NCBI GenBank assembly: GCA_934254835.1
Contig: CAKQMI010000001.1
Span: 14,588-78,587 of the forward strand
From: an uncultured Clostridia bacterium
GTDB lineage: Bacteria > Bacillota > Clostridia > Christensenellales > CAG-917
Direction of reading: 5' to 3'
Length of the DNA stretch: 64,000 nucleotides
Shown: one piece after another, positions 6,104 to 51,793 of the stretch
Numbering within the stretch: position 1 is the first letter of the stretch
Layout: each line of letters begins with the position of its first letter
The notes under the pieces: generated by a model
Database searches by the model: none
The model's input: the letters and a program-made list of their open reading frames with translations, nothing else
Told to the model about the DNA's origin: nothing
Translations under genes and position numbers: made by a program

Positions 6104-6166
6104 ACTAATTTACTTTATAATAAAAATTCTCACCAAAAATCGGCGAGAATTCCTTTCGCCATTCGC

Positions 6167-6306
6167 AAAATCGGCGATTCTATACACTCTAAAACGGCAG
6201 TCGCCATTTCTCTTTCTCCAAAATCGGCGATTTTATGCTCTCTAAAACGGCAGTCGCTACTTCTCTTTCTCCAAAATCGGCGATTTTATACTCTCTAAAA
6301 CGGCAG
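6167..6306. repeat. 53-bp tandem repeat, about 2.6 copies
   Basis: AAAATCGGCGATT..CTCTAAAACGGCAGTCGC..TTCTCTTTCTCC restarts at 6167, 6220 and 6273. The last copy merges into the hairpin unit. Confidence 0.85.
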
Positions 6307-6421
6307 AATTTTGATGAGATTACGGGGTTCTTGGCGGGTTCCGAAAAATCCAGTGTACTTTGCGTACACGATTTTTCGGGTTCTGCCAAAACGCCGTAAG
6401 GTCGCAAAATTATGCCGTTTT
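6297..6421 (-). repeat. 125-bp three-tier hairpin unit, copy A1
   Basis: Outer arms AAAACGGCAGAATTTTGAT / TCGCAAAATTATGCCGTTTT, middle stem TTGGC/GCCAA, apical hairpin GTGTAC-TTTGC-GTACAC. Read on the minus strand it begins 2 nt after the jag stop codon. Confidence 0.8.
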
Positions 6422-6423
6422 AA

Positions 6424-8998: not shown

Positions 8999-9139
8999 TT
9001 AGTTGTGCGGGGCAAGTCTTGCTCTGCCTTTGTTGCGACGACGTTTCAATACGTTGCGTCCTTGCTTGGTTTGCATTCTTTTCCTGAAACCGTGTACCTT
9101 GGTTACGTGTCTTTTCTTGGGTTGGAATGTCCTTTTCAT
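8999..9139 (-). CDS. rpmH: 50S ribosomal protein L34
   Basis: [49 protein letters not shown] at 9139 follows AAGGAGG. The ORF-track start at 9193 is too far upstream. Confidence 0.95.
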
Positions 9140-9202
9140 ATATGCCTCCTTAATAGGGATTATTTCTTCACTATTGTTATTATAATATAACAATGCCAGT
9201 CA

Positions 9203-9231
9203 ATTATAAGTAAATTTCCCCTCGGTGTCAA
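9203..9231 (-). promoter_or_regulatory. Putative sigma-A promoter of rpmH operon
   Basis: On the minus strand, TTGACA (9231-9226), a 17-nt spacer, then TATAAT (9208-9203). Confidence 0.5.
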
Positions 9232-9587
9232 CCGATTTGACGACTTTAAGGAAATGACGGCGTTAAGTTTTTTTGTGTTTATTTGATATATAATCAGACC
9301 TTGCTTTTCGATTTTCGGTTTTTCTTGCGCCTTTCGTGCAAGCATTGTGAATGCCACCCGAGAATGTTTCCAACTGTCTTCGCCCGCGTTTTTGTCAAAA
9401 GCCTTGTTGCACTCTCGGCAAAAACGCAAAGTATTAGACCGTTCGCGCGCCAAGTTTTCGCCATAAACCGCACGGCAACGCTCTCTCAACCCGTTTCTTT
9501 TATGATTTTTGAAAAGACGAGTGCGGTTGATATTTTTGTACAAAATGACCTTATCAAAAAGCAAGAATATCAGCGTTTTAAAAAAAC

Positions 9588-9619
9588 AAACCGTACAAAG
9601 TACGGTTTAACCTTTTTTC
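9588..9619. terminator. Bidirectional intrinsic terminator
   Basis: Stem AAACCGTA / TACGGTTT with loop CAAAG. An A-run lies on the left and a T-run on the right. It sits downstream of the SdpI-like gene. Confidence 0.65.
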
Positions 9620-9708
9620 TTTCGAGTTTTGCCGATTCTTGCGTTTTCTCGATTTGCAAAACAACTCGGTTTTTGTCGTTTTTCGAAAACCTTACATTTG
9701 TATAGTTT

Positions 9709-10080
9709 TTAATCGGTTTGCTTTTTGTTTTTATTTTCACGTTTTCTTTTTACAAAAAGCCTCGCTTCGGTAATAATAATCGGCGCAAGAATATTCACAA
9801 TGACGCTTCCTACAAAATACCAAAATAAGTCGATTTTGATATTAAAACAGTATTTTGATATTATCAGAGCTATGCCAACAACCATTGATGTTATTGCCAA
9901 AATTATCATTACTTTTGGGGCAAATTTGTTTGCATATTTCCAGTATTCCTCGTTTATTGATGACCGCTTGGTACGATACCCGTACAAACTGTTCATCGGA
10001 GGCGTTTTAATAAGCAATATTATTGATGCCAATATGAGCGACAGTTGAATACCGAACGTATAAAAAAGATCTCTCCACAT
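9709..10080 (-). CDS. SdpI/YhfL-family membrane protein
   Basis: 123 aa with 3-4 TM helices and the family-like motif NSLYGYRTKRSSINEEYW. RBS AAGGAGGG. Confidence 0.6.
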   Translation of the reverse strand: MWRDLFYTFGIQLSLILASIILLIKTPPMNSLYGYRTKRSSINEEYWKYANKFAPKVMIILAITSMVVGIALIISKYCFNIKIDLFWYFVGSVIVNILAPIIITEARLFVKRKRENKNKKQTD

Positions 10081-10525
10081 AATCCCTCCTTTTGTCAGAA
10101 AAAAACCCCTCCGAAATTAACTTTGTCGCACTTTACTTCTGAAAAAGCAAATATTCCGCTTTTAATCTTTTGAGGCCTTGAATTTTTCCAAGCAGTAACT
10201 CTGAAACTAAAAATTAACAGGCAAAAAAATAAACAAAAGATTTTATTTATTAAATTATATCATCTACTCTCTCCATTGTCAATATTTGTTCTTTTTCCGG
10301 TTTTTTCCTAAATCGAGCAAACGGGTTTTTTCTCCCTCGTATATCGAACTGCTCCGCCAATAATCAAACCACAAATCTCGCCTTTTCTTTTCGTTTCTCG
10401 TTTTTGTTCACCCAACAGTAACCCTGTCCAAATAACTCTGTCACAGAATCTTAAACGTAGTTGCCCTTCAAAAAACCGTCGCAAAATCGTTGAACCTTGC
10501 GAAACCATTCTTCCCGACAGACTAT

Positions 10526-10541
10526 CGTTTCACGCGAAACA
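10526..10541. promoter_or_regulatory. parS-like site 1
   Basis: CGTTTCACGCGAAACA matches the Bacillota parS consensus TGTTNCACGTGAAACA at 14 of 16 positions. Confidence 0.5.
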
Positions 10542-10773
10542 ATGGCTTTTTGCGCGCAAAAACCATTTACTAAAATCAACAATACCGCGCCGTCACCCCT
10601 TGTCAATGAGCCTAATCGGAACACAACATGCTCCACATGCATTCAGTCACAAGGTAATCATGGCTACAAAACGGAAAACCGCCGAACCGTTCAACAACTC
10701 GAAAGAATAAACAATGTCTCCGCCAAAAGGAACTATCCTCATCAACAACTCGGATAAATTTGTCGGACAAACA

Positions 10774-10797
10774 ATGCCAACCGTGAATAATACGAAC
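10774..10797. repeat. Conserved 24-mer ATGCCAACCGTGAATAATACGAAC, copy X
   Basis: Identical to 11907-11930 and to the reverse complement of 12161-12184, while the flanks are strongly diverged. Confidence 0.9.
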
Positions 10798-11075
10798 TGT
10801 ACTAATCCGAAACAACCTCTCTTTTGCAGTCAGACAGAACGAAAATATTAAAAATTGACGCCCCGTAAGCACGGGCGCATAATTTAACAACTAAACCACC
10901 ATACCATGAACATTAAACACGCAAGCCGACATTCGCACCCGAAACAATCCGTAATATACTTTTTGCTTTATTATACAACTATTTGTGGCACCACAAACAT
11001 TGCACATCCACATTGCCAAACTCACCCGCAATAGTTTTGCTTAAACAAAGCATTTTCTCTTCCATTCTTGTCATT

Positions 11076-11096
11076 GCACGCGAGCGGGTTAATACT
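11076..11096. repeat. Conserved 21-mer GCACGCGAGCGGGTTAATACT, copy W
   Basis: Identical to the reverse complement of 11989-12009. About 65 nt of weaker similarity follows in both copies. Confidence 0.9.
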
Positions 11097-11906
11097 CTAT
11101 TCCTAAGCCATAAGCGCAACAACAACTTTGTCAAAAATACAACGTCGGATCTGCGTGACCAAATCGTCAATAATTTTGACTATTTTTGAAAAAAGCAACC
11201 ACCACTACACTTGTCGTACAGAGGCGAATTTTTGCAAAACACGGATATTGCGACAATTTGGCAATGTTCATATTATCCTTGTCCGATAATAAAAACCCTA
11301 TTGTTTTTGCCTAACGAAATTATCACAAATTAAAAACAGGAACGCTGTTAAAGCAAGCAACTAATTCACTGAGAGTTTTGAAAAAAGTCTCAAATCTTTC
11401 TTTCGGAACCCTTTTTAATTTGAAAACCAAATACGACGTTACAAATAACCGAAAATATTAACCGGTCGCACATGTTCTATTTATAAAAGCATTCCTAACC
11501 GCATAAAAAAGAAACCTCCAAAAACCCCGTCTATTTTGGTAATAACAAGCTAAAACACGGCTATAAATCTTTTGCGCCACACAACACAGGAAATAACAAG
11601 GAAAGTATTCTCGAAGTCACGATATAACCATACTCGCATAATATTCTGTCTCTCACCAACCAATGTGCCCAATTTTCCCGATCTTTGAAAATTCGCCACT
11701 TGAAACACAGTAACAAGCAATTAACAAAAACATAATAAACAAACATATAAACGTCACTCAAATCCGCCAAAACCACGCTGACAAATTAAAAATCGGACAA
11801 ATACAATGATATATCGTTTCAAGAAAAGGCCAAACAAGGGCAAAACCATTACAAAAACATCAAATTTATTCAACGGGGCACGAATTTGATTTTTTATTTT
11901 TATAAT

Positions 11907-12184
11907 ATGCCAACCGTGAATAATACGAACCGTGGTCTTGCTCCGTGTTTTTGACCAAAACCTCGTTGCGCTCACGGCTTATACATACAGTATTAACCCG
12001 CTCGCGTGCCTTGTTTTCGTCTAAAAACGCGGGGGCAATACTCCTTAGACCAAACCACCGAGAATTTCGATGATTTTTGGGAAAAATGAACGCAGTTGTA
12101 CTTTTGGTACTACAAGCGAGTTTTTGCAAAAAAGCACGGAAATATCGGCGATTTCTAACAGTTCGTATTATTCACGGTTGGCAT
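11907..12184. repeat. 278-bp inverted-repeat element with perfect 24-bp termini (MITE-like or long-hairpin locus)
   Basis: The termini at 11907-11930 and 12161-12184 are exact reverse complements. The subterminal ~90 nt of both halves are recognisably related (CAAAAACACGGA next to the 24-mer). No ORF and no obvious target-site duplication. Confidence 0.6.
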
Positions 12185-12474
12185 GCAACGGCTATTCAAA
12201 CGGCGAGAAAAACATAATAAACCAAAGAAACACCCGCTTTACTATATTTTTCTCGCTATTGCAACATAAACAAATTATCAAACACAACCAATCGAAAAAT
12301 AGAACGTAAACAAGATTTTCAAAAAGCACGTTGACAGGCAATTCTTTTTTTTCAATAATATGTTAAATATACATAAACCCTGTCAACATAAAACATTCTT
12401 TGAGGTCGATTATCTCAAATATGACGTTTCTATCCGTTGACATTATGTAGATTTTCTGGGAAAAGAGCAAAAAG

Positions 12475-12483
12475 ATATCCACA
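12475..12483. promoter_or_regulatory. DnaA box-like 9-mer (1 mismatch)
   Basis: ATATCCACA versus consensus TTATCCACA. Confidence 0.45.
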
Positions 12484-12497
12484 ATGTTACTATCGAA

Positions 12498-12513
12498 CGT
12501 TTCACGTGAAACA
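12498..12513. promoter_or_regulatory. parS-like site 2
   Basis: CGTTTCACGTGAAACA matches the parS consensus at 15 of 16 positions. Confidence 0.65.
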
Positions 12514-12564
12514 ACGATGATTTTACGCTATTTTTGCTTGTCTAAAAATTGTTCCGTTTTCATA

Positions 12565-12580
12565 TGTTTCACGCGGAACA
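12565..12580. promoter_or_regulatory. parS-like site 3
   Basis: TGTTTCACGCGGAACA matches TGTTTCACGTGGAACA at 15 of 16 positions. Confidence 0.65.
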
Positions 12581-12585
12581 AAAAG

Positions 12586-12594
12586 TTGTCCACA
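12586..12594. promoter_or_regulatory. DnaA box-like 9-mer (1 mismatch)
   Basis: TTGTCCACA, sandwiched between parS-like sites 3 and 4. Confidence 0.45.
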
Positions 12595-12596
12595 AT

Positions 12597-12612
12597 TGTT
12601 CCACGCGGAACA
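12597..12612. promoter_or_regulatory. parS-like site 4
   Basis: TGTTCCACGCGGAACA matches at 14 of 16 positions. Confidence 0.5.
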
Positions 12613-12736
12613 AAACGGTGCTTTTTGGCGGGTTTTTGGGCGTTTTTCCTTGGTTTTAAGCGGTTTATTGCGGTTTGTTTGCGGTGAATTACGGCATTTT
12701 CGTTTCTTTCTCCGTGTAAAATTGGCATACCGCTTT

Positions 12737-12745
12737 TGTGGATAA
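12737..12745. promoter_or_regulatory. DnaA box (perfect consensus, reverse orientation)
   Basis: TGTGGATAA is the reverse complement of TTATCCACA. Confidence 0.6.
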
Positions 12746-12829
12746 CTTTTGCTATTTTTTGGACAAGTATAATCATCGTGCTTTGTGGCAATAATATAAG
12801 CAATTTATTAAGGAAAATGGTGGTTTTTT

Positions 12830-12976
12830 ATGAAATGTACGTCGTGTAATGAGGCTTTTTCGCCTGATAAAATGTTTGTTTGTAAGTCTTGTGGCGCTTG
12901 TTTTTGTGAAAACTGTGTGAAAAACAACGATAATTCTTGTTTGAAATGCGGTACCGTGCTTGACAGATTTAACTAA
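12830..12976 (+). CDS. Hypothetical 48-aa Cys-rich (zinc-ribbon-like) small protein
   Basis: Own ORF, below the track size cutoff: MKCTSCNEAFSPDKMFVCKSCGACFCENCVKNNDNSCLKCGTVLDRFN, with four CxxC pairs. GGTGG lies 6 nt upstream. Caveat: the G/T-rich strand inflates TGT/TGC codons. Confidence 0.3.
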   Translation: MKCTSCNEAFSPDKMFVCKSCGACFCENCVKNNDNSCLKCGTVLDRFN

Positions 12977-13004
12977 ATGCGCAATTTTTGCCAGCAAAAA
13001 GGCG

Positions 13005-13020
13005 TGTTTCACGTAAAACA
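13005..13020. promoter_or_regulatory. parS-like site 5
   Basis: TGTTTCACGTAAAACA matches at 15 of 16 positions. Confidence 0.6.
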
Positions 13021-13530
13021 TTGTCGTTTTTTTTGCCTTGCTTTTTTATCGGTTTTTGGTTATTTTTTCAGCAAGAAATTATTTCTTTTAGGCTCAAAAT
13101 GGCTTTTTTTTGCATATAATCGGCGACATTTGGTTTGCAACTTGTCTGCTACTGCTACAACGTTATTTCTTTGTTTTCTTGCGGGTAAATAGGCTTATTC
13201 TTGCAACGAATTTGTCTTTGTGCGCGCACGGTGAATCGCATTGTTTTCGAAACGTTATTGTTTTTCAAAAGTTGTTGGCATAACTATTGGGTTTTTGTTA
13301 AAAACAAGAAGTTCTCTGGCTTTTATGGTTTATTTTATTTTGGGAGTATTACGCTTGTCCGCCATGGGTTTTGCGATTTTTTAACTGCGACGGATTCTCT
13401 TTATGAAATAGCTTGCTTTCAACTATTTGTTATGTTGATTGTTTTTCAAAACTTGTTATGTTCGGTTACTTTGTTTGCTATTTGTTCTTTCAATTATTTT
13501 CAAAAACGATAAGGTATTTGTGTTAATTCC

Positions 13531-13556
13531 AAATAAAAACCCCGCCGTCGGCGGAG
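13531..13556 (-). terminator. Intrinsic terminator downstream of luxS
   Basis: GC stem CCGCC-GTC-GGCGG followed on the minus strand by TTTTTATTT. Confidence 0.5.
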
Positions 13557-13580
13557 TAACCATTGTATATGCGCGGATAA

Positions 13581-14003
13581 TTATTTTATAAACGGAAGAA
13601 AAGCACGGATTTCGGCTTTTGCGCCGTCCAAGTCGTGATCGAGATAGTTTCCGCACTCGTGGCGTTTTGCGCCCGGAATTTCATTTATTTCAAGGCATTT
13701 TTCAAAGCACTCTTTCACGATAGGTTTGACTTCGTCGAGGGTGGTGTCAAACATAAGCAGATAAAACCCCGTGCGACAACCCATCGGTCCGAAATAAACA
13801 ACCTTTTCTTTGACCGCGCTGTTTCTGATGACGGTCGCAAAAATATGCTCGATTGTGTGTGCGGACGCTGTTGACAAAAAATCGCCCTCGTTCGGATTTT
13901 TGAAGCGTAGGTCGAAAGTGGAAATATTCCTTTCGGTGTTTGAAAGGAAAACCCCTTTTGAAAGCGTGTCGTGATTTACAAGAAATGACGTGACTGTTTC
14001 CAT
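13581..14003 (-). CDS. luxS: S-ribosylhomocysteine lyase LuxS
   Basis: 140 aa with the HTIEH metal motif and GCRTGFY. It lies adjacent to mtnN. Confidence 0.9.
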   Translation of the reverse strand: METVTSFLVNHDTLSKGVFLSNTERNISTFDLRFKNPNEGDFLSTASAHTIEHIFATVIRNSAVKEKVVYFGPMGCRTGFYLLMFDTTLDEVKPIVKECFEKCLEINEIPGAKRHECGNYLDHDLDGAKAEIRAFLPFIK

Positions 14004-27769: not shown

Positions 27770-28135
27770 GCTTGCGCAGGATTGTGCCTACGGCACGATA
27801 GTTGCCTGTCGGCACGAAGCGGTGCCTTCCCAGGGGATTGTCACGTCACTTCGTTCCTCACAATGACAACTCTGTTTGTCATTCTATGGCATTGCGAGAG
27901 GATTCTCTCTTCTGTCTTTCTGTTGCGTTGCGAGAGTATTCTCTTTTCTGTCATTCTGAGGCATCGCCATAGGAGATGCCGTGAGAATCTCCCGGAAGGG
28001 ACACCTTGTGAAAAGAGGAGTCTCTGTACGATGTGTGCCTGTCGGCACGAAGCGGTGCCTTCCCAGGGGATTCCCGCGCTTCGCTCGGAATGACAAAACT
28101 GCATTGCCATTGTGAGAGAAAGGGGTACATTCGTC
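27770..28135. repeat. Intergenic repeat cluster B
   Basis: Several copies and arms of the GTCATTCTGAGG...GTGAGAATCTC family in both orientations (for example 27949-28005 forward, 28037-28094 reverse). Confidence 0.85.
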
Positions 28136-29409: not shown

Positions 29410-29890
29410 CTCCGATTTTGCCAACTTGCGATTTGTCGGCTTTTGACATTCCGAGGCATTTATGCGGTGCCTTCCCAGGGGATTGTCACGTCACCCGTCG
29501 CACACTTCACTTTTGAAATCACGTTAACGCAAGCGATAACGCTCGCTCTTTTGCTCGTGTGCGCCTTTTTCTCCACGCAAGTACAAAAGAATCTTGCGTG
29601 GGTTTTAACAAGGTGTCCCTTCCGGGAGATTGCCACGCTACGCTCGCAATGACATAAAGTGAGTTGCACCGAATAGCAAAAGAGAGCACGAAAATCTGCT
29701 ATTTTTTAACAAGCAAACCGTTTTCCCCTTCTGCACGAAGTACTTAATGTCTTTCCAAGCGAAGAGTGGCGTTCATCTCTCTTCTGTCATTCTATTGCGT
29801 TGCGTGAGGATTCTCTCTTCTGTCATTCTGAGGCATCGCCACAGGCGATGCCGTGAGAATCTCGTGGGAACGAACCTTATGAAATGATGA
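29410..29890. repeat. Intergenic repeat cluster C
   Basis: Contains a ~95-nt module homologous to the reverse complement of 38518-38612 and GTCATTCTGAGG-family copies (29821-29873 forward, 29590-29655 reverse). Confidence 0.85.
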
Positions 29891-30042
29891 GCCTTTCGGC
29901 ACGTTGCGGTGTCGCGAGGAAGGGCGAGAGGACGGCACGACTTTACAAAACAAATGAAAAAATTACTTTTGTTTGCAAAAAATATTGAAATAAACCTTTA
30001 TATTATGCTATAATTACTATATCTTGAAATTTGGAGGAAATT

Positions 30043-31314
30043 ATGGCAGATTTTGACTTCAAAGTCGCATCCGAAAGTATGATGGACTTTATCAAAAAAG
30101 TCGAGACAGAAATCGGTCCGCGTCTTCCCGGCTCCGACGAGGAACGCGCCGGCGCAAAACTCATCAAAGAAGAGTATGAAAAAAACATTGGTATTAAGCC
30201 CGTGTCCGAACCGTTCAAGGTTGCCCCCGAAAGCGGAATCGGCTCGATTCCTTATATCGGTATCGGCGGACTTATCGCACTCATCGGCTTTTTCATTTAT
30301 CCGATAGTAGGCGCGGTTATCGCGGTGCTTTGCTTCCTGTACTTTGCGGTTATGGGCGGATTTTACACCCAGATTTTCGACTTCCTGTGGAAAAAGAAAG
30401 ACACCGAAAACTTCTATACCGTGCAAGAGCCGTTGTCGGGCAAGGTTGACTACACAATCGTATTGTCGGCGCACTACGACAGCAGTTGGAACTGGAATCT
30501 TGCAAAGAAAAACCCCAAAACCTTCATTCCGAAAATCGTATACGGCGTCGTGGGACTCCTTTCGATTTTGGTGTTCGGTTTCGTGTTGCAATTCGCGGAT
30601 AAAGGGGCGTACGCTCAGCCCTTGTGGACAAACGCCGCTTCAATCACTACTTGGAAATGGTACGTCTATCTCGGCTATATCCTGCCCATCGTCTGCATAC
30701 CGGGGCTTTACTATATCACGCAATTCTTGTCGCACGACAAAACCATCGCGTCCCCCGGCTGTATGGACAACCTCACGGGCATCGGCTTGAACCAAGAAAT
30801 CGCAAAACACTTCAACCGTCACCCCGAAGATTTGCCCGAAAACTGCCGTCTTATCTGCGCCGCTATGGCGTGTGAGGAGTCCGGACTTCGTGGCGCACGC
30901 GCTTTCGTCAAACTCCACAAGGACGACGGTATGCTCAAAAATTGCTATCAAATCAACGTCGACAGTATCTCGGACGAGGACTACTTCGAGGTCATTCAAG
31001 GCGACGCAATTCAAATGTGCAAATTCGATATGGAACTGGGCGATATGCTTTACGAATCCTTGCAGGAACTCGGTCTTGTCAAAAAGACAGGCAGAATTTG
31101 GAACCCCGTCGGCGGTTGCGACAGCACCCCGTTCTGCCGTGCAGGCGTGAAAACAATCACCTTCGCCGCGCAAAACCCCATCGCCACCGACTACTACCAC
31201 ACTTCCAACGATAAGTCGGATCGCTTAAAGACCAGCGTGTTCGAGGGAGGCATCGAGGCGGTGTATAGGACTATTAAGAAAATCGGCGCAAAAGAAGACG
31301 CGAAACGTCAATAA
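30043..31314 (+). CDS. M28-family peptidase-like membrane protein
   Basis: ATG at 30043 follows GGAGG. It has internal TM helices, SAHYDS and CEESGLRGA motifs, and a paralog at 43448..44761. Confidence 0.65.
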   Translation: MADFDFKVASESMMDFIKKVETEIGPRLPGSDEERAGAKLIKEEYEKNIGIKPVSEPFKVAPESGIGSIPYIGIGGLIALIGFFIYPIVGAVIAVLCFLYFAVMGGFYTQIFDFLWKKKDTENFYTVQEPLSGKVDYTIVLSAHYDSSWNWNLAKKNPKTFIPKIVYGVVGLLSILVFGFVLQFADKGAYAQPLWTNAASITTWKWYVYLGYILPIVCIPGLYYITQFLSHDKTIASPGCMDNLTGIGLNQEIAKHFNRHPEDLPENCRLICAAMACEESGLRGARAFVKLHKDDGMLKNCYQINVDSISDEDYFEVIQGDAIQMCKFDMELGDMLYESLQELGLVKKTGRIWNPVGGCDSTPFCRAGVKTITFAAQNPIATDYYHTSNDKSDRLKTSVFEGGIEAVYRTIKKIGAKEDAKRQ

Positions 31315-31427
31315 TTTGCGATCTTTTGAGTTTTTTCGAGAACCTGAAAATCCGTGTACGCAATAGTACACTAGGATTTTCAGAACCCCGAAAGAAACGT
31401 CAAAACCTCATCAAATTCTTGACGTTT
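31303..31427 (+). repeat. 125-bp three-tier hairpin unit, copy D1
   Basis: Arms AAACGTCAATAATTTGCGAT / ATCAAATTCTTGACGTTT, apical hairpin CTGAAAATCC-GTGTAC-GCAATA-GTACAC-TAGGATTTTCAG. Its first 12 nt encode the last three codons and the TAA stop of the upstream gene. Confidence 0.85.
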
Positions 31428-31604
31428 CGTACAACATATATAATCGCACTTTTTGAGTTTTCGGCAGAACTTGCTCGGTTGCGTACGAAATAGTACGCGC
31501 GCTCGCAAAACCTGCCGAGAAACGTCAATGGGGCCCCCGCGAGATACTTTGTACTCGTGGGGCATAGAGGCATCAAATTCTTGACGTTTCGTACAACATA
31601 TATA
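31428..31604 (+). repeat. Variant hairpin unit D2 with an extra inserted hairpin
   Basis: Shares the inner left arm and full right arm with D1. It carries GCGTAC-GAAATA-GTACGC and GGGGCCCCCGCGAGATACTTTGTACTCGTGGGGC hairpins. The direct repeat TTGACGTTTCGTACAACATATATA occurs at both ends. Confidence 0.75.
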
Positions 31605-31610
31605 AATTAA

Positions 31611-31637
31611 AGCATCTCGAACGAGGTGCTTTTTTTG
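31611..31637 (+). terminator. Intrinsic terminator downstream of the D1/D2 repeats
   Basis: Stem AGCATCTCG / CGAGGTGCT followed by T7. Confidence 0.7.
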
Positions 31638-31740
31638 TGTCGTTTTCCCCATTCAGGGAACCCGCGCGTCGCTAACCCTGAATTCCCCTTTCACGGGTTT
31701 TGAAAAGCGTGGTTTTCAAAAACCGAACAGCGGTGGATTA

Positions 31741-32045
31741 ATTATAATATATCATAAGATGTCATTCTGAGGAGCGAAGCGACGTGAGAATCTCCCGGAA
31801 GGGAACCTTGTTGCTTATGCAGTGATATGCCTACGGCGTGATATTGTCTTCGACAGTGATATTGCGTTGCAGTGATATTTGCCCTGTGGGCAAGTTGCGG
31901 ATAAACACCTTAGCTTTGGCGACAGCCAAAATATAACTTTGACGAAGTCAAAATATAATTTGCATTGCAAATATAACTTGCGTAGCAAATTTAACTTGCG
32001 TAGCAAATTTAACTTGCGAAGCAATCTAACCCACGCAAGACACTT
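31741..32045. repeat. Repeat cluster D, distal part (GTCATTCTGAGG arm plus mini-hairpin arrays)
   Basis: 31761-31807 is a family arm. 31819-31900 holds GTGATAT plus a small hairpin, four times. 31935-32027 holds five ~18-nt units of the form AACTTGCNNNGCAAAT. Confidence 0.8.
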
Positions 32046-32162: not shown

Positions 32163-33077
32163 ATGAAAAAGAAACTTGTTTTAGTTTTGACAGCGTTCGC
32201 GTTTTTCACGACGCTGTTTTCTTTTACCGCGTGCGCAAAAGACAAGGTAAATATCAAAAAAGGAATGAAGCCCGAAAAGGTTTTTGAAATGCTTGCAAAT
32301 GCAAAAATCACTTCGTTTACGACAGAGGGAAAAAGAGGAGAAGAAGTGACGCGTCGGACTTTTACTGCGGAAGGATATACGATGATGAAAACAGGAGGAG
32401 AAGACGCGGGCATTGAAGCGGAAATCTATGACGGAAAACGACGTTATTCCATAACAAAAAATGCAGAAGAAGACAGCATCGAAATTATGGATATGATGGG
32501 AGTAAAATACGACAACTTTGACGGAAAGAATTTTGTCCTTAATACAGATCTTTTTTGGCCACTTTCCAATTATATTTATAACGAGAGAAACGGTTATAAA
32601 AACAATTTTACGGTAAACTTCGAGAAAGACAAAATAATATTCGCTTACAAAAACAATTATACATTTACAATTTACGGAATCAACAACACAACGCTCGAAA
32701 TACCCGATAAATATAAAGATTATGCGACGCGTCCGACAACCAAATATCTTGCGAATTTTGAAGACACAGAATACGGGTTTGCATTTACAGGGCTGAATAC
32801 GTGGATAGATGATGAGTTTGTCATTCCCGAAAAATTTGACAAAAAGGACGTTGTGGCGATAAAACTTGTTGAAAGCTTTTACGACTGCGAAAAACTTACA
32901 ATCCCCGTCAGCATAAAGAAAATTGATGGTTTTTCATACTTTTTTGGCGATATCGATGAAATGTATTATGCAGGAACAAAGGAGCAATGGAACGCCATTG
33001 AGTTGACGGGAGCCGAAGTTTATAAAGACATCGTTGTGAAATGCTCGAACGGCGACGTCGTCATCACAAAGAACTAA
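32163..33077 (+). CDS. Putative lipoprotein, unknown function
   Basis: 304 aa with a signal peptide and lipobox (FSFTAC). The C-terminal block YYAGTKEQWNAIE..KDIVVKCSNGDVVITKN is shared with the next gene. Confidence 0.7.
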   Translation: MKKKLVLVLTAFAFFTTLFSFTACAKDKVNIKKGMKPEKVFEMLANAKITSFTTEGKRGEEVTRRTFTAEGYTMMKTGGEDAGIEAEIYDGKRRYSITKNAEEDSIEIMDMMGVKYDNFDGKNFVLNTDLFWPLSNYIYNERNGYKNNFTVNFEKDKIIFAYKNNYTFTIYGINNTTLEIPDKYKDYATRPTTKYLANFEDTEYGFAFTGLNTWIDDEFVIPEKFDKKDVVAIKLVESFYDCEKLTIPVSIKKIDGFSYFFGDIDEMYYAGTKEQWNAIELTGAEVYKDIVVKCSNGDVVITKN

Positions 33078-33090
33078 GGGGGAAAGAAAC

Positions 33091-34089
33091 ATGAAAAAGA
33101 AAATCATATTGATATTAACAGCAATAATGATTGTCCTTTCCACGGCGATAGTGTGCGTTGCATGCAAAGGCGCAAAAACCGTAAAGTTTGATAAAAAAAT
33201 GGGAATAGGCGAAATAATGTCGGCGCTTGTAAAAACCGATATTAAAAATTTCACCAAGGTTACGATAGAAAAAGAGGTCACCAACGAAGAATACGTTACA
33301 AAAACATACTACACGCAAAGCGGATATGGAAGCGTTTACGAAAAAAACGGAGAAAAAATAAGCGCGTACGCACAGTTTTTTGAGGGCAACAGATATTACG
33401 ATCTAACAAAATACAGCGACCAAAGAACAGCAAAATACGTTTGCTCGATTGGTGACAACGAGGTAAAAAAAGAAAGTATTGACATTACGCAAAACAGTCT
33501 TTCCGACTTAATCGTAAGTCTATATTCAATAAAAGAATGTGGAGGGAAATCCGGTTTTAGCAACCGGTATGAAGGCGCAAAGGTTTACGTTGAAGACAAA
33601 AATGGTTTTGTTATTGAAACACAAAGAGACAAACAAATATTCAAAGATTTCAACAAAACAAAGTTGAACGTTGACGAGTTTGAAGGCTATAAGAATTGTG
33701 ACGCAATACCAATTGATAATTGCAAAGAATCCGAAGACGGGACGTACTATGAGTCTCTTGGCATTTTGGAATATTTCGGACCATATATACACATAACAAT
33801 GCGTATGAAAAGCTATACGATTCAACCGCAATTTACAAAAGACGGCAAGACATTGCCCGTAAAAGTTGCCCATTTAAGTGATTATAGAATCGATAAATTC
33901 ATTATTCCAACGAGTATCGAAAAGGTCTTTTTCGACGACTACGCCGAATATAAAGAATACTGTTATTTGGGGACGAAAGCAGAGTGGGAAAGCAAAGTAA
34001 CCGTTGAAAAAAAGCCTAATAAAGACATCGTTGTGAAATGCTCGGACGGCGACGTCACGGTGAAAAAACAAGCAACGGAAAACCCGTAA
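33091..34089 (+). CDS. Putative lipoprotein, paralog of 32163..33077
   Basis: 332 aa with lipobox VCVAC. Its C-terminus reads CYLGTKAEWESKV..KDIVVKCSDGDVTVKKQ. Confidence 0.7.
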   Translation: MKKKIILILTAIMIVLSTAIVCVACKGAKTVKFDKKMGIGEIMSALVKTDIKNFTKVTIEKEVTNEEYVTKTYYTQSGYGSVYEKNGEKISAYAQFFEGNRYYDLTKYSDQRTAKYVCSIGDNEVKKESIDITQNSLSDLIVSLYSIKECGGKSGFSNRYEGAKVYVEDKNGFVIETQRDKQIFKDFNKTKLNVDEFEGYKNCDAIPIDNCKESEDGTYYESLGILEYFGPYIHITMRMKSYTIQPQFTKDGKTLPVKVAHLSDYRIDKFIIPTSIEKVFFDDYAEYKEYCYLGTKAEWESKVTVEKKPNKDIVVKCSDGDVTVKKQATENP

Positions 34090-37352: not shown

Positions 37353-37924
37353 CCTATCACGTTAGAAAATACAAAGACGAGGATCGCGACGCCGTAAGGA
37401 AGATTTGTCACCTCACGGCAACCGCGCCCGCCTACGTCAAAAATCCCGAACTTGTCGCAACGCTTTACGCCGATTATTACATCGAGTTCGAGCCCGACGG
37501 CATTTTCGTTTTGGCGCGCGACGAGGACGACGTGGCGGTCGGCTATATCCTGTCGAGCCTTGACTACAAATCATTTTTGAAAACTTTCAATAAGTACTTT
37601 ATGCCACGGGTAAGGAAACTTTCAAGGCTTGAAGCGTTCACGCACTTTTTCGCTTTCCGCCAAAGTCTTTATATGGACGCGAAAAAATACCCCGCGCACC
37701 TGCATATCGACATTTTGCCCGGGGCGCAACACCAAGGATACGGCGCGAAACTTATGGACGCACTCATGGACTACCTCTTTGAAAAGGGCGTGAAAGGCGT
37801 GCATCTGGGCGTCGGCGCGGACAACGCGGGCGCAATCAGGTTTTACGAGAAGTATGGGTTTACGATGATACACAACTTTAAATCTTTTGGCAAAGTCTTC
37901 GCCAAAACAATAAAACGGCGATAA
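37349..37924 (+). CDS. GNAT-family N-acetyltransferase
   Basis: 191 aa with an acetyl-CoA motif region QHQGYGAKLMDAL and AIRFYEKYGF. An ATGA overlap links it to the upstream gene. Confidence 0.8.
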   Translation: MTYHVRKYKDEDRDAVRKICHLTATAPAYVKNPELVATLYADYYIEFEPDGIFVLARDEDDVAVGYILSSLDYKSFLKTFNKYFMPRVRKLSRLEAFTHFFAFRQSLYMDAKKYPAHLHIDILPGAQHQGYGAKLMDALMDYLFEKGVKGVHLGVGADNAGAIRFYEKYGFTMIHNFKSFGKVFAKTIKRR

Positions 37925-38035
37925 TTTGCGATATTCTGCTTTTTCGGCGGAACCCCGCTCGGTTACGTACGTCAGTACGCGCCCTCGCGAGAACCCGCCG
38001 AGAAAAACACAATCTCATCAAATTCTCGCCGTTTT
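37912..38035 (+). repeat. 124-bp three-tier hairpin unit, copy E1
   Basis: Its outer 43 nt and 45 nt are identical to copy F1 (50812-50936), but the apical hairpin differs (ACGTAC-GTCA-GTACGC core). Its first 13 nt encode K-R-R and the TAA stop of the GNAT gene. Confidence 0.9.
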
Positions 38036-38080
38036 ATAGGGAAAGAATTATCTCATCAAAATTCTGACTTTTTAGAGGCA

Positions 38081-38250
38081 GGGGACCCCGCGGGATACTG
38101 TGTACCCGTGGGGAGAAGGAGCAAACGAGCATAAGACAAACAAACAAATGAAATGAGATTGTTTGGTCAAAAGCGAGATTTGCGACGCGTACACTAGGAT
38201 TTTCAGAACCTGCAAAGAACCCCAAAAATCCATCAAATTCTCGCCGTTTT
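38081..38250 (+). repeat. 170-nt conserved module, copy E2
   Basis: About 90 percent identical by eye to 51207-51377. It has a GGGG..CCCGCGGGATACT.TGTAC..CG.GGGG hairpin, a CAAACAAACAAA tract, GCGACGCGTACACTAGGATTTTCAGAAC, and ends in ATCAAATTCTCGCCGTTTT. Confidence 0.85.
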
Positions 38251-38289
38251 AATTAAGATTATTATTTTTACGTTGCACAAAATCTGCCG

Positions 38290-38800
38290 TTTTTAATAGA
38301 TTTTATTTGTCATTGCGAGCGTCGTGACGTTTCTTTCTTCTGTCATTGCGAGGAGCGAAGCGACGTGGCAATCTCCCGGAAGGGTATCCTTTTATGTCAT
38401 TCTGAGGAGCGAAGCGACGTGAGAATCGCCTGGGAAGGCACCATATCATACTGGCATTTATGAGGTTTCGTTCCCACGAGATTCCCACGCTACGCTCGGA
38501 ATGACAACAAGAGTTTCTCACACAAGCAAAAGAGTGAGCGTTATCGCTTGCGATAACGTGATTTCAAAAGCGAAGTGTGTGACGCAGTGACGTGGCAATC
38601 TCCCGGAAGGGTATCCTTTTATGTCATTCTGAGGAGCGAAGCGACGTGAGAATCTCCCGGAAGGGCAACCTTGTTGCTTTCGCAGTGATATTGTCTTCGA
38701 CAGTGATATTTGCCCTGCGGGCAAGTTGCGGATAAATACCTTAGCTTTGGCGACAGCCAAAATATAACTTGCATTGCAAAAATAATCGTTCTTGTCCTCG
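38290..38800. repeat. Repeat cluster E, distal part
   Basis: Contains GTCATT(C/G)(T/C)GAGG-family arms at 38341, 38395 and 38623, the 95-nt module at 38518-38612, and a GTGATAT mini-hairpin array at 38681-38783 homologous to 31819-31960. Confidence 0.85.
38395..38506. repeat. 112-bp palindromic element of the GTCATTCTGAGG family
   Basis: TGTCATTCTGAGGAGCGAAGCGACGTGAGAATCGCCTGGGAAGGCACC, a 21-nt loop, then GGTTTCGTTCCCACGAGATTCCCACGCTACGCTCGGAATGACA. Homologs are at 50969-51080 and 51483-51600. Confidence 0.85.
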
Positions 38801-50113: not shown

Positions 50114-50806
50114 ATGAAAAATAAAAACAAATCCAAAAACAGACAATCCAAAAATAAACAGTTTGCGGTCATAGGTCTTGGAAGATTCGGCTCCACCGTC
50201 GCCAAAACCTTGTTTGAAAAAGGCGAGGAAGTGCTTGCCGTCGATATCAGGGAAGAAATTATCACCGAGGCGCACGAATACACCACCCACGCCGTCGTCG
50301 CCGACGTCACCGATGAGCGTACCTTGCGCGCGCTCGGCATCGAAAACTTTGACGTCGTCATCATCGGCATTGCCAGCGACTTGGAAGCAAGCGTCTTGTG
50401 CACCCTCACTTGCAAGGAAATCGGCGTCAAAAAGGTCATCGCAAAGGCGGAAAACCTTAAACATAAGCTCGTGTTGGAGCGCGTCGGCGCGGACGAGGTC
50501 GTCATTCCCGAAATGGAAATGGGCGAAAAAATGGGCGCACGCCTTTCCAACCCATTGCTCCACGACATTATGACAATCAGCAGTAAATACAGCATCATCG
50601 AGATGGAACTGCCGTCCAGCTGGGCGGGAAGCTCGCTCATCTCTCTCGATATCCGCAAAAAGTACGACGTCAACGTTTTGGCGGTCGAGCGCGACAACGA
50701 CGTCATTCTCAACTTCGCCGCCGACGAACCCCTCCTCGAGGGCGATACCTTGCTTGTCGGGGGGAGTAGGGAGATGCTTGACCTTCTGCAAAACCAATAC
50801 AACTAA
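50114..50806 (+). CDS. ktrA: Potassium uptake protein, TrkA/KtrA (RCK) subunit
   Basis: 230 aa with the Rossmann motif FAVIGLGRFG and an RCK_C region. Confidence 0.9.
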   Translation: MKNKNKSKNRQSKNKQFAVIGLGRFGSTVAKTLFEKGEEVLAVDIREEIITEAHEYTTHAVVADVTDERTLRALGIENFDVVIIGIASDLEASVLCTLTCKEIGVKKVIAKAENLKHKLVLERVGADEVVIPEMEMGEKMGARLSNPLLHDIMTISSKYSIIEMELPSSWAGSSLISLDIRKKYDVNVLAVERDNDVILNFAADEPLLEGDTLLVGGSREMLDLLQNQYN

Positions 50807-50811
50807 AACGT

Positions 50812-50936
50812 AAAACGGCGATAATTTGCGATATTCTGCTTTTTCGGCGGAACCTGAAAAATCGTGTACGGTCAGTACACTGGATTTTTCAGAACCCGCC
50901 GAGAAAAACACAATCTCATCAAATTCTCGCCGTTTT
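50812..50936 (+). repeat. 125-bp three-tier hairpin unit, copy F1
   Basis: Starts 6 nt after the ktrA stop. The outer arms are identical to E1. The apical hairpin is CTGAAAAATC-GTGTAC-GGTCA-GTACAC-TGGATTTTTCAG. Confidence 0.9.
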
Positions 50937-50968
50937 GAATTTTGAGACATTCTGCCGTCGAAAGATTA

Positions 50969-51080
50969 TGTCATTCTGAGGAGCGTAGCGACGCGAGAAT
51001 CCCCTGGGAAGGCACCATATCATACTGACGTTTATGCGGTTTCGTTCCCACGAGATTCCCACGCTACGCTCGGAATGACA
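50969..51080. repeat. 112-bp palindromic element of the GTCATTCTGAGG family
   Basis: Homolog of 38395-38506 with the same loop sequence ATATCATACTG.C.TTTATG. Confidence 0.85.
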
Positions 51081-51206
51081 GAAAAGAGCGTTAAGCCACG
51101 CTACGCTCGGAAAGACAACAAGTGCGTCGCACGCAAGGAACACGCTTTCATTACAACCACTTTGGATAGGTACATTCCACTGTCATTCTGAGGCATCGCC
51201 CATTAT

Positions 51207-51377
51207 GGGGCCCCCGCGGGATACTATGTACTCGCGGGGAAAAGGAGCAAACGAGCATAAGACAAACAAACAAACAAAATGAGTTTGTTAGGTCAAAAGT
51301 GAGATTTGCGACGCGTACACTAGGATTTTCAGAACTCCGAAAGAAACGTCAAAAATCCATCAAATTCTCGCCGTTTT
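51207..51377 (+). repeat. 171-nt conserved module, copy F2
   Basis: Homolog of 38081-38250. Confidence 0.85.
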
Positions 51378-51482
51378 GGGAACATATAATTCTGCTGTTT
51401 TGAGCATCATTTCATTAAATTCTTGCCGTTTTAGATATGTTAGTTTACGTCATTCCGAGTGTAGAGTGACGTTTTTCTTTTC

Positions 51483-51600
51483 TGTCATTCTGAGGAGCCC
51501 CAACGGGGCTCCGTGAGAATCTCGTGGGAACGAAACCGCATAAACGTCAGTATGATATGGTGCCTTCCCAGGGGATTCCCACGCTACGCTCGGAATGACA
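51483..51600. repeat. 118-bp palindromic element, central part inverted relative to 50969-51080
   Basis: The loop GCATAAACGTCAGTATGATAT is the reverse complement of the loop in the 50969 copy. One arm carries an extra GC hairpin, AGCCCCAACGGGGCT. Confidence 0.85.
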
Positions 51601-51793
51601 ACAAGTGCGTCGCACGCAGATAACCTCATTATTCAAAAAAACTTCACAAAAAAACCGTATTCATAAGCAAAAAATAACAGGTAGTCACGAATACCCATAC
51701 ACGCTTATTTTTCAGAAACAAAAAACGGCTGTTAATCTATATAGCAAGAGTGTCCCCTTGACAGTCGAAAAAAAAGGAACGACTTGTGAGCAA

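What the first reader, a model, noticed from the sequence alone, without database searches (positions are those of the whole stretch)
10774..12184. Perfectly conserved 24-mer (three copies) and 21-mer (two copies) define two inverted-repeat elements beside the putative origin
ATGCCAACCGTGAATAATACGAAC occurs at 10774 and 11907 (same orientation) and inverted at 12161. GCACGCGAGCGGGTTAATACT occurs at 11076 and inverted at 11989. Around these exact cores the sequence is only loosely similar. The arrangement gives a 278-bp element (11907-12184) with perfect 24-bp termini. It also gives an older-looking ~390-bp one (10774 to about 11165) whose right terminus has decayed. Exact cores within diverged flanks argue for selection on the cores (protein-binding site, RNA motif or transposase end). 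The short peptides they encode (TVRIIHGWH, ARERVNT) fall in different frames, so a coding explanation fails.
Basis: seen in the sequence. Interest (0 to 1): 0.55.

Follow-up and report, generated by a model that had tools for sequence, protein, structure and literature searches.

The report
Small mobile foldback repeat beside origin
The exact 24-mers and 21-mers are the ends and the most conserved inner block of a roughly 278-bp non-coding, hairpin-forming mobile repeat (MITE-like) that is scattered through gut Clostridiales genomes; it is a new example of a familiar kind of selfish DNA, not part of the replication origin.

Summary
In detail: the 24-mer occurs three times and the 21-mer twice, against none expected by chance.

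**What the motifs are.** The 24-mer is the terminal inverted repeat (TIR) of a 278-bp non-coding foldback element, B (11907-12184). The 21-mer is the 5' half of the apical hairpin of one inner arm, the most sequence-conserved block of the family.

**Evidence that it is mobile.**
- Family members sit at 14 or more unrelated intergenic sites in human-gut Clostridiales contigs.
- One locus has a precise filled/empty pair, with the element flanked by a duplicated AT.
- Copies are polymorphic: inverted in place, truncated, or reduced to solo TIRs.
- One sample carries both reciprocal recombinants between B and a second copy.

**Structure.** TIRs differ between subfamilies but always match within a copy: 10 of 24 terminal pairs covary. 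No strand preference, promoter or Rfam family was found.

The "older 390-bp element" is mis-delimited. It is a solo TIR (10774-10800) plus a separate, rearranged, diverged copy (11075-11290). A third copy (9351-9605) was missed.

**Relation to the origin.** A sister species has none of A, B or C at the corresponding positions of its origin region. These are therefore insertions, not origin parts.

**Open point and verdict.** No partner transposase was found. An IS30-like one is only inferred. This is a new member of a known kind.

The parts
11907..12184 (-). Element B: the intact 278-bp foldback element. The family's reference orientation is the window minus strand. Layout: TIR stem, arm 1 (about 12039-12157), arm 2 (about 11928-12038). 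If AT is the target duplication, the element proper is 11909-12182.
   Evidence: It gives a full-length profile match of 331 bits. Contigs of another gut species carry copies 89-92% identical to it. It folds with z -7.8 to -9.6. Short-read contigs from three samples break inside it.
11907..11933 (+). Terminal inverted repeat of B on the left in window coordinates; it contains the 24-mer.
   Evidence: It pairs with 12158-12184 at 26 of 27 positions.
12158..12184 (-). Terminal inverted repeat of B on the right in window coordinates; it contains the 24-mer.
   Evidence: It is 27/27 complementary to 10774-10800.
11969..12009 (-). Apical hairpin of arm 2. The 21-mer (11989-12009) is its 5' half. 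This is the most sequence-conserved block of the family.
   Evidence: In the alignments it shows 0-2 mismatches in every full-length member except C, which has 4. Helix 8 has 13 pairs and none with changes on both sides. The B/X crossover interval, identical in both copies, includes it.
10774..10800 (+). Solo TIR: 27 nt identical to the TIR of B plus TGT. Similarity fades after it. Together with 12158-12184 it brackets a 1.4-kb segment with perfect inverted ends.
   Evidence: only profile positions 1-55 match, at 19 bits. A solo TIR of the same kind occurs in four other contigs (L009, L016, L024, L026).
11075..11290 (.). Old, diverged, rearranged copy (the body of 'A'). 11075-11149 is an arm-2 fragment on the plus strand and carries the 21-mer at 11076-11096. 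11149-11278 is arm 1 on the minus strand. 11266-11290 is a decayed TIR.
   Evidence: The profile matches positions 175-249 on the plus strand and 12-146 on the minus strand. blastn gives 80% over 65 nt and 68% over 124 nt against B. The decayed end reads ATCGGACAAGGATAATATGAAC.
9351..9605 (-). Copy C: a third, diverged copy about 67% identical to B, lying between rpmH and the SdpI-like gene. One TIR survives in degraded form (9351-9374, ATGCCACCCGAGAATGTTTCCAAC). The other end is replaced by a terminator-like hairpin (9587-9609).
   Evidence: 68.5 bits; 97 bits; hairpin.

Best explanation
The 24-mer and 21-mer belong to a family of about 278-bp non-autonomous, non-coding transposable elements, a MITE-like foldback repeat, in uncultured human-gut Clostridiales.

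**Anatomy.** Each intact copy has 24-27-bp terminal inverted repeats (5'-RCCAAC...AATAATACGAAC) that close a Y-shaped fold with two inner hairpin arms. The 21-mer lies in the apical hairpin of arm 2.

**Shown.**
- Copies lie at many unrelated intergenic sites.
- One site is filled in some strains and precisely empty in another.
- Copies are flanked by AT.
- Copies invert in place, lose internal parts or shrink to solo TIRs.
- Two copies have recombined reciprocally in one strain.
- Base pairing of the TIRs, and partly of the inner arms, is kept by changes on both sides.

**Inferred.**
- A transposase encoded elsewhere moves them.
- It recognises the TIR and perhaps the invariant apical block.
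- The 2-bp AT duplication, the abutted end-AT-end junctions and the piling up of copies and fragments next to each other fit a copy-out/paste-in DDE enzyme of the IS30 type, which also targets its own ends. I put about 0.35 on that specific family.

The window cluster (C, solo TIR, old copy, B) is then a graveyard and landing pad of such insertions in a large, tolerant non-coding stretch beside the origin. It is not origin machinery.
For: **Many unrelated sites.**
- The exact 21-nt TIR core is present in 21 human-gut contigs in three different contexts.
- Seven further diverged copies lie next to bacterial housekeeping genes.
- No coding DNA is shared between these hosts and the window, yet the element is 76-92% identical.

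**Filled versus empty site.** L015 and L020 read GCT-AT-[ACCAACC...GGTTGGT]-AT-TATAATC, while L031 reads GCT-AT-TATAATC.

**Abutted ends separated by AT.** These occur in L031 (TTGGC-AT-GCCAAC) and in L057 (TGTTGGA-AT-GCCAACAG).

**Multicopy in the window's own species.**
- Contigs L002, L004, L035, L036, L039 and L040 end inside B.
- Sample ERZ27286944 holds both reciprocal B/X recombinants, luxS-B/X-hypA (L001) and nagB-X/B-A-SdpI (L037). The crossover lies in a shared stretch of about 75 nt.

**Inversion in place.** It is seen in L035 against the window, in L058 against L059, and among L015, L020 and L031.

**Not coding.** Members differ by 1-, 2- and 3-nt indels and by a C-run of 5-8.

**Covariation.** 16 pairs change on both sides, against 7.7 +/- 1.4 in shuffles (0 of 500) and 0-4 in slid controls. 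In the terminal helix, 10 of 24 pairs do so.

**Not origin-specific.** 9 of 14 genomes of a sister species (80-86% DNA identity) have no copy in the same origin region. The other 5 carry a polymorphic copy at another position.

**IS30 properties.** A 2-bp duplication, end-to-end junctions, targeting of its own ends, and the resulting deletions and inversions are described in PMC9333248.
Against: - No autonomous partner with these ends was found. There is none in the window, in the fetched loci, in plasmids or in IMG/VR.
- The AT duplication rests on one clean empty site. An alternative reading of that site is zero duplication with TA...TA or TG...CA ends.
- TIR sequences that covary, rather than stay fixed, are not what simple transposase-site conservation predicts.
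- Inner-arm covariation and invariant inner blocks suggest a constraint beyond the ends.
- The copy number in a complete genome is unknown, because the genome scan found only one hit, and that was in another organism.
Confidence: 0.78

Rival explanations
1. A hairpin-dependent element of the REPIN type. The folded single strand (ssDNA at the replication fork, or RNA) is the substrate rather than the terminal sequence. It would be recognised through the invariant apical block by a single-copy domesticated enzyme such as an HUH/Y1 transposase.
For: - Within-copy complementarity is kept while TIR sequence drifts between subfamilies.
- Some compensatory pairs occur in the inner arms.
- Sequence-invariant blocks sit in hairpins.
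- B folds as ssDNA with z -9.6.
- REPINs show the same pattern of compensatory changes in a long hairpin (PMC3116915).
Against: - At 278 bp the element is far larger than REP doublets.
- A 2-bp duplication and abutted ends are not features I know for Y1 enzymes; this rests on my own knowledge.
- No RAYT-like gene was seen, but none could be searched for.
- Covariation in palindromes can also arise without selection, by template switching that copies one arm onto the other; this too rests on my own knowledge.
Confidence: 0.1
2. A structured non-coding RNA gene family, or a cis-regulatory RNA, that has been duplicated and spread.
For: - The consensus folds are strong, with covariation, on either strand.
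- Several copies sit 9-100 nt after a stop codon in the gene's orientation. One sits between a perfect promoter and the start codon.
Against: - No Rfam match appears even at E <= 1.
- There is no consistent strand preference in energy or in G-U versus A-C counts.
- Orientation relative to neighbouring genes is mixed, about 7 to 4.
- No internal promoter was found and the only terminator-like hit is a weak 5-pair stem.
- Copies are truncated, inverted or absent between close strains.
Confidence: 0.06
3. An invertible switch (inverton). The 27-bp inverted repeats would be sites for a site-specific recombinase that flips the 224-bp interior, or the 1.4-kb segment 10774-12184.
For: - The same site carries the element in opposite orientations in close relatives.
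- Inverted repeats of this size and spacing are typical of invertons; this rests on my own knowledge.
- A palindromic AT at the junction would allow either orientation with a serine recombinase (inference).
Against: - No promoter lies inside the element.
- No recombinase gene was found among the window genes scanned.
- The whole unit, ends included, is present or absent and sits at unrelated loci.
- The contigs that cover 10774-12184 are all collinear.
Confidence: 0.04
4. Binding sites for a replication or segregation protein that belong to the origin region.
For: The elements lie close to three DnaA-box-like sites, five parS-like sites and the GC-skew minimum. A sister species also has family copies in its origin region in 5 of 14 genomes.
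Against: - Most copies elsewhere are not near an origin.
- 9 of 14 sister-species origin regions have no copy.
- Position, orientation and completeness vary.
Confidence: 0.02

Closest known systems
Bacterial MITEs (for example Correia elements of Neisseria, RUP of Streptococcus pneumoniae, ERIC/IRU of enterobacteria); named from my own knowledge
   Same: Small size (about 280 bp), no coding capacity, terminal inverted repeats and intergenic location. Copies occur at unrelated sites, insertions are polymorphic, a short target duplication is present, and the element folds into a long hairpin.
   Different: No sequence relation to any of these was tested or seen. The TIRs covary between subfamilies instead of being fixed. 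The interior holds near-invariant blocks and two inner hairpin arms. The partner IS is unknown.
IS30 family insertion sequences and their derivatives (PMC9333248)
   Same: A 2-bp target duplication, ends 20-30 bp long, abutted end-to-end junctions, insertion next to existing ends, and a trail of deletions and inversions where several ends lie together.
   Different: No IS30-type transposase gene with these ends was found. The duplication is inferred from one clean site. The resemblance concerns behaviour, not tested homology.
REPINs mobilised by RAYT transposases (PMC3116915)
   Same: A non-autonomous hairpin-forming repeat in extragenic space. Compensatory changes occur on both sides of the hairpin. 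Singlet remnants are found, and clusters form.
   Different: REPINs are about 70-110 nt doublets of short REP palindromes. No 2-bp duplication is described for them. They are known mainly from proteobacteria. No RAYT gene was examined here.
Invertons (invertible promoters of gut bacteria); from my own knowledge
   Same: Inverted repeats of about 25 bp flank a few hundred bp, and both orientations are seen among close strains.
   Different: No promoter lies inside and no nearby invertase was found. The whole unit is mobile and multicopy.

Membership tests
MITE (non-autonomous TIR transposon) | Short (under about 600 bp) and without coding capacity | tested here: met
   The element is 275-282 bp long. 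Members differ by 1-3-nt indels and by a C-run of 5-8. No ORF is conserved.
MITE (non-autonomous TIR transposon) | Terminal inverted repeats | tested here: met
   The TIRs are 24-27 bp and 96-100% complementary in B. They are present in every full-length member.
MITE (non-autonomous TIR transposon) | Several copies at unrelated genomic sites | tested here: met
   At least 14 distinct sites were found across contigs. In the window species there is a second full copy, X, beside hypA/nagB.
MITE (non-autonomous TIR transposon) | Presence/absence polymorphism with precise boundaries | tested here: met
   L015 and L020 are filled and L031 is empty at the same site. Less precise cases occur in the sister species.
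MITE (non-autonomous TIR transposon) | Target-site duplication | tested here: inconclusive
   Nearly every complete end examined is flanked by AT; L035 reads GT. The single clean empty site holds one AT. The same data also fit zero duplication with TA/TG...CA ends.
MITE (non-autonomous TIR transposon) | A cognate autonomous IS with the same ends | tested here: not met
   None was found in the window, the fetched loci, plasmids, phages or IMG/VR. No complete host genome was searchable, so the absence is weak evidence.
IS30-family derivative | 2-3-bp duplication and 20-30-bp ends | tested here: inconclusive
   The data are consistent with this, but the duplication rests on one site.
IS30-family derivative | End-to-end junctions with a 2-bp spacer, and insertion next to its own ends | tested here: met
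   The L031 junction reads GGC-AT-GCC and the L057 junction reads GGA-AT-GCC. This is behaviour only. Other circle-forming families also make such junctions.
IS30-family derivative | DDE transposase of the IS30 type that recognises these ends | not testable with these tools
   No candidate gene is available.
REPIN/RAYT system | Doublet of short REP palindromes forming a hairpin, with compensatory changes | tested here: inconclusive
   A hairpin and compensatory changes are present. The unit is 278 bp with two inner arms, so it is not a REP doublet.
REPIN/RAYT system | Single-copy RAYT gene in the same genome | not testable with these tools
   No genome-wide protein set is available for this organism.
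Any Rfam RNA family | Match to a curated covariance model | tested here: not met
   There was no hit at gathering score over the whole window. Within the elements A, B and C there was no credible hit at E <= 1; the only match in 9000-13700 is a far-sub-threshold chance hit on the hairpin at the end of C.
Inverton | Promoter inside the invertible segment and a cognate invertase | tested here: not met
   No promoter-like site lies inside 11907-12184. No recombinase was found among the window genes scanned.

The most novel reading that the evidence does not exclude
The family may not be an ordinary transposase-end MITE. It may be a fold-dependent replicator in Firmicutes, a large REPIN-like element, in which selection keeps the Y-shaped single-strand structure and an invariant apical motif. 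That motif would be recognised by a so far unidentified, possibly domesticated, enzyme. Its copies would act as frequent switches of local orientation and as breakpoints of chromosome inversions next to the origin.
Probability: 0.12. Interest if true: 0.6.

Novelty: new member of a known kind. Interest (0 to 1): 0.33.

Why it matters
- **Annotation.** It explains a striking pattern beside a replication origin as selfish DNA. That prevents over-reading the motifs as origin or regulatory signals.
- **Assembly.** It defines a repeat family that breaks short-read assemblies of an abundant, uncultured gut Clostridiales lineage.
- **Genome structure.** The family marks sites of strain-level rearrangement, including what appears to be a chromosome inversion with a breakpoint about 300 bp from the DnaA-box/parS cluster.
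- **Gene expression.** One insertion sits between the -10 box and the start codon of a gene and is polymorphic between strains, so the family can alter expression.
- **Open question.** The covarying ends and the invariant apical block raise a modest question about what the mobilising enzyme actually reads.

Tried and rejected
- **Coding.** Rejected because members differ by indels that are not multiples of three and no ORF is conserved.
- **Known RNA family.** Two Rfam scans gave nothing.
- **Strand preference as a sign of an RNA.** Minimum free energies differ inconsistently between members. G-U versus A-C counts follow whichever strand the structure was predicted on. The test is inconclusive.
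- **Internal promoter or terminator.** None is convincing.
- **Plasmid or phage origin.** Plasmids gave no match. Three IMG/VR scans gave no match or one chance-level hit. The seven 'Bacteriophage sp.' records are unverified faecal contigs whose flanks encode bacterial housekeeping genes.
- **Genome-collection scan.** The only hit is a Clostridia MAG contig in which the TIR halves form the terminator hairpin after a tRNA. It may be a minimal relic or chance, since about one 20-mer hit is expected.
- **Parental nagB-X-hypA arrangement.** I searched for it through HypA homologues. The relatives found have other neighbours and no copy.
- **Second clean empty site in the sister species.** Only footprints and rearranged alleles were found.
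- **Transposase in the window.** None among the 30 ORFs scanned.
- **Origin function.** Rejected, because the elements are absent from most related origin regions.

Full report
**1. The observation**

The 24-mer is exact at 10774(+), 11907(+) and 12161(-). The 21-mer is exact at 11076(+) and 11989(-). Neither has further matches with up to three mismatches, and none are expected in shuffles. The inverted arms run to 27 nt: 10774-10800 against 12158-12184 is perfect, and 11907-11933 against 12158-12184 is 26/27.

**2. Setting**

- The window is the origin-proximal part of an uncultured Clostridiales genome. The name comes from the DnaA cluster.
- On one side lie mnmG, mnmE, jag, yidC, yidD, rnpA, rpmH and an SdpI-like gene. 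On the other lie luxS, mtnN, an MFS gene, rsmG, parB, dnaN and dnaA.
- Between them is 3.5 kb without credible genes (10080-13581).
- This gap holds the cumulative GC-skew minimum, three DnaA-box-like sites at 12475-12745 and five parS-like sites.
- 'Beside the putative origin' is therefore reasonable.

**3. Anatomy of element B**

- B (11907-12184) folds into a 27-bp terminal stem closing two inner hairpin arms. The z-scores are -7.8 and -8.7 as RNA on the two strands and -9.6 as ssDNA.
- The 21-mer is the 5' half of the apical hairpin of arm 2.

**4. It is a family, and it moves**

*Copies elsewhere.*
- The 21-nt TIR core occurs in 21 human-gut contigs. These fall into three contexts.
  - One is a full-length copy 13 nt after a stop codon and before the gene's terminator.
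  - One is a full-length copy between a perfect TTTACA-17-TATAAT promoter and a 171-173-aa gene.
  - One is a solo 24-mer.
- blastn against the phage collection found seven more diverged copies (75-86% identical) in unverified faecal 'Bacteriophage sp.' contigs. Their flanks encode FeoB, CtsR/McsB/ClpC, PcrA/LigA and similar proteins, so they are probably bacterial DNA.
- The hosts share no alignable coding DNA with the window, yet the element is 76-92% identical.

*A precise insertion.*
- In L031 the promoter-proximal copy is absent. The empty site reads GCT-AT-TATAATC.
- The filled site reads GCT-AT-[ACCAACC...GGTTGGT]-AT-TATAATC.
- Nearly every complete end seen is flanked by AT; the copy in L035 reads GT.
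- The symmetric readings are a 2-bp AT duplication with ends R...Y, or no duplication with TA/TG...CA ends.

*Abutted ends.* Two independent loci show two ends abutted with AT between them: L031 TTGGC-AT-GCCAAC and L057 TGTTGGA-AT-GCCAACAG.

**5. Dynamics in the window's own species and its relatives**

- Short-read contigs coming from luxS or from the SdpI gene stop inside B in several samples, as expected for a multicopy repeat.
- Sample ERZ27286944 has two contigs that are reciprocal recombinants between B and a second copy, X.
  - L001 reads luxS - B(1 to about 221) + X(rest) - hypA.
  - L037 reads nagB - X(1 to about 146) + B(rest) - old copy - SdpI gene.
  - All X-specific differences lie outside a shared stretch of about 75 nt that includes the 21-mer block.
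  - That stretch is shorter than the assembler's k of 141, so a real inversion between inverted copies is more likely than a chimera. This is an inference.
- A relative about 97% identical in the flanking DNA (L035) carries the element at the same site in the opposite orientation. Another (L036, about 96%) carries an interior of a different subfamily.
- In a sister species (80-86% DNA identity) the luxS-rnpA gap is again about 3.7 kb and non-coding, but A, B and C are absent.
  - 9 of 14 genomes have no copy there.
  - The other 5 have a copy at another position. It is full-length in one, truncated in three and, in one of those three, also inverted.
  - One 'empty' allele keeps a 13-nt TIR footprint.

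**6. What is conserved**

- TIR sequences differ between subfamilies:
  - CCAACCGTGAATAATACGAAC
  - CCAACAGATAATAATACGAAC
  - CCAGACAAGATTAAAACGA
  - CCAGGCAAGA...
  - CCAGACGGAAATAATACGAAC
- The two ends of any one copy nevertheless match.
- On eight sequences, 16 of 79 pairs change on both sides, against 7.7 +/- 1.4 in shuffles (0 of 500) and 0-4 when partners are slid. The terminal helix contributes 10 of its 24 pairs and the inner arms contribute 6.
- The apical hairpin with the 21-mer does not covary. It is simply invariant (helix 8).
- Both strands give equally good consensus folds. Neither energies nor G-U/A-C counts single out one strand.
- The constraint therefore looks symmetric. It may act at DNA level or on either single strand. 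It may also be partly a mutational product of template switching within palindromes, a mechanism I cite from my own knowledge.

**7. Re-reading the window**

- B is an intact copy.
- 10774-10800 is a solo TIR identical to one end of B. Beyond it, similarity drops to background.
- 11075-11290 is an old copy in the opposite orientation with arm 2 flipped.
  - That is why the 21-mer appears 'inverted' relative to B while the arm-1 part is direct.
  - Its exact 21-mer reflects the family-wide invariance of that block.
- The stretch 10774-11290 does not fold as one element.
- 9351-9605 is a third, older copy. Both of its cores have decayed, with 6 and 4 mismatches.

**8. Mechanism**

*Shown:* the element is mobile, non-coding, TIR-bounded, AT-flanked and recombinogenic.

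*Inferred:* it is mobilised in trans. Four observations match the behaviour described for IS30, which makes 2-bp direct repeats, forms end-to-end junctions, targets its own ends and so generates deletions and inversions (PMC9333248):
- the 2-bp duplication;
- the end-AT-end junctions;
- the clustering of copies and fragments;
- the local deletions and inversions.

No transposase with these ends was found anywhere I could look, so family assignment stays open. REPIN-like, RNA-gene, inverton and origin-site readings are weighed under the rival explanations.

**9. Verdict**

The element is an ordinary kind of thing, a MITE-like repeat, in a little-studied lineage, with a mildly unusual pattern of covarying ends. 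I class it as a new member of a known kind, of moderate-to-low interest.

Noticed in passing
window 10526-10541, 12498-12513, 12565-12580, 12597-12612, 13005-13020: Five parS-like sites (TGTTTCACGTGAAACA with 1-3 mismatches) lie in the non-coding gap, against 0.6 expected. Three DnaA-box-like sites lie at 12475-12745. This probably marks the centromere-like and origin region.
   Followed up: partly
window 10080-13581: This is a 3.5-kb stretch without credible genes. It has strong strand asymmetry (GC skew -0.29 and AT skew +0.13 for 10-12 kb) that reverses near 12 kb. A sister species keeps a gap of similar size, but its sequence does not align. ORFs called there by pipelines (for example 12773-13021 and 9160-9564) look spurious.
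   Followed up: partly
window 6166-6422, 27795-28102, 29464-29891, 31301-31995, 37904-38770, 50805-51618: Other intergenic repeat families are built from short mosaic modules (for example GTCATTGCGAGGAGCGAAGCGACGTGGCAATCTCC). They repeat within the window and are 80-100% identical to intergenic DNA of another gut species that shares no alignable genes. They are unrelated to the element studied.
   Followed up: partly
window 6166-6306: A 53-bp tandem repeat of 2.7 copies, 93% matching, lies between mnmE and jag.
   Followed up: no
L001 11820-12097 and L037 7897-8174 (sample ERZ27286944): Both reciprocal recombinants between element B and a second copy X are present. This implies a chromosome inversion with one breakpoint about 300 bp from the DnaA-box/parS cluster and the other between nagB and hypA.
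   Followed up: partly
L015 3019-3310, L020 5142-5419, L031 7160-7185: An insertion polymorphism lies exactly between the -10 box of a TTTACA-17-TATAAT promoter and the start codon of a 171-173-aa Cys-rich, very acidic protein gene (MAYKKCPRCELNW...). The filled allele adds a 277-nt structured leader.
   Followed up: partly
L005 4053-4099 (Clostridia MAG CAMOUZ010000111.1): A tRNA 3' end (…CCCACCA) runs straight into ACCGTGAATAATACGAAC, then 16 nt, then GTTCGTATTATTC and TTTTT. This is a terminator hairpin made of the two TIR halves. It may be a minimal relic of the family, its source, or chance.
   Followed up: partly
L011, L025, L027, L019 (element positions about 150-155): A C-run in the junction between the two arms varies from 5 to 8 C among otherwise near-identical copies at the same locus. 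This suggests slippage.
   Followed up: no
window 32163-33077 and 33091-34089: Two adjacent genes of unknown function (304 and 332 aa, no Pfam match) share a 38-nt near-identical stretch near their 3' ends. They are probably tandem paralogues.
   Followed up: no
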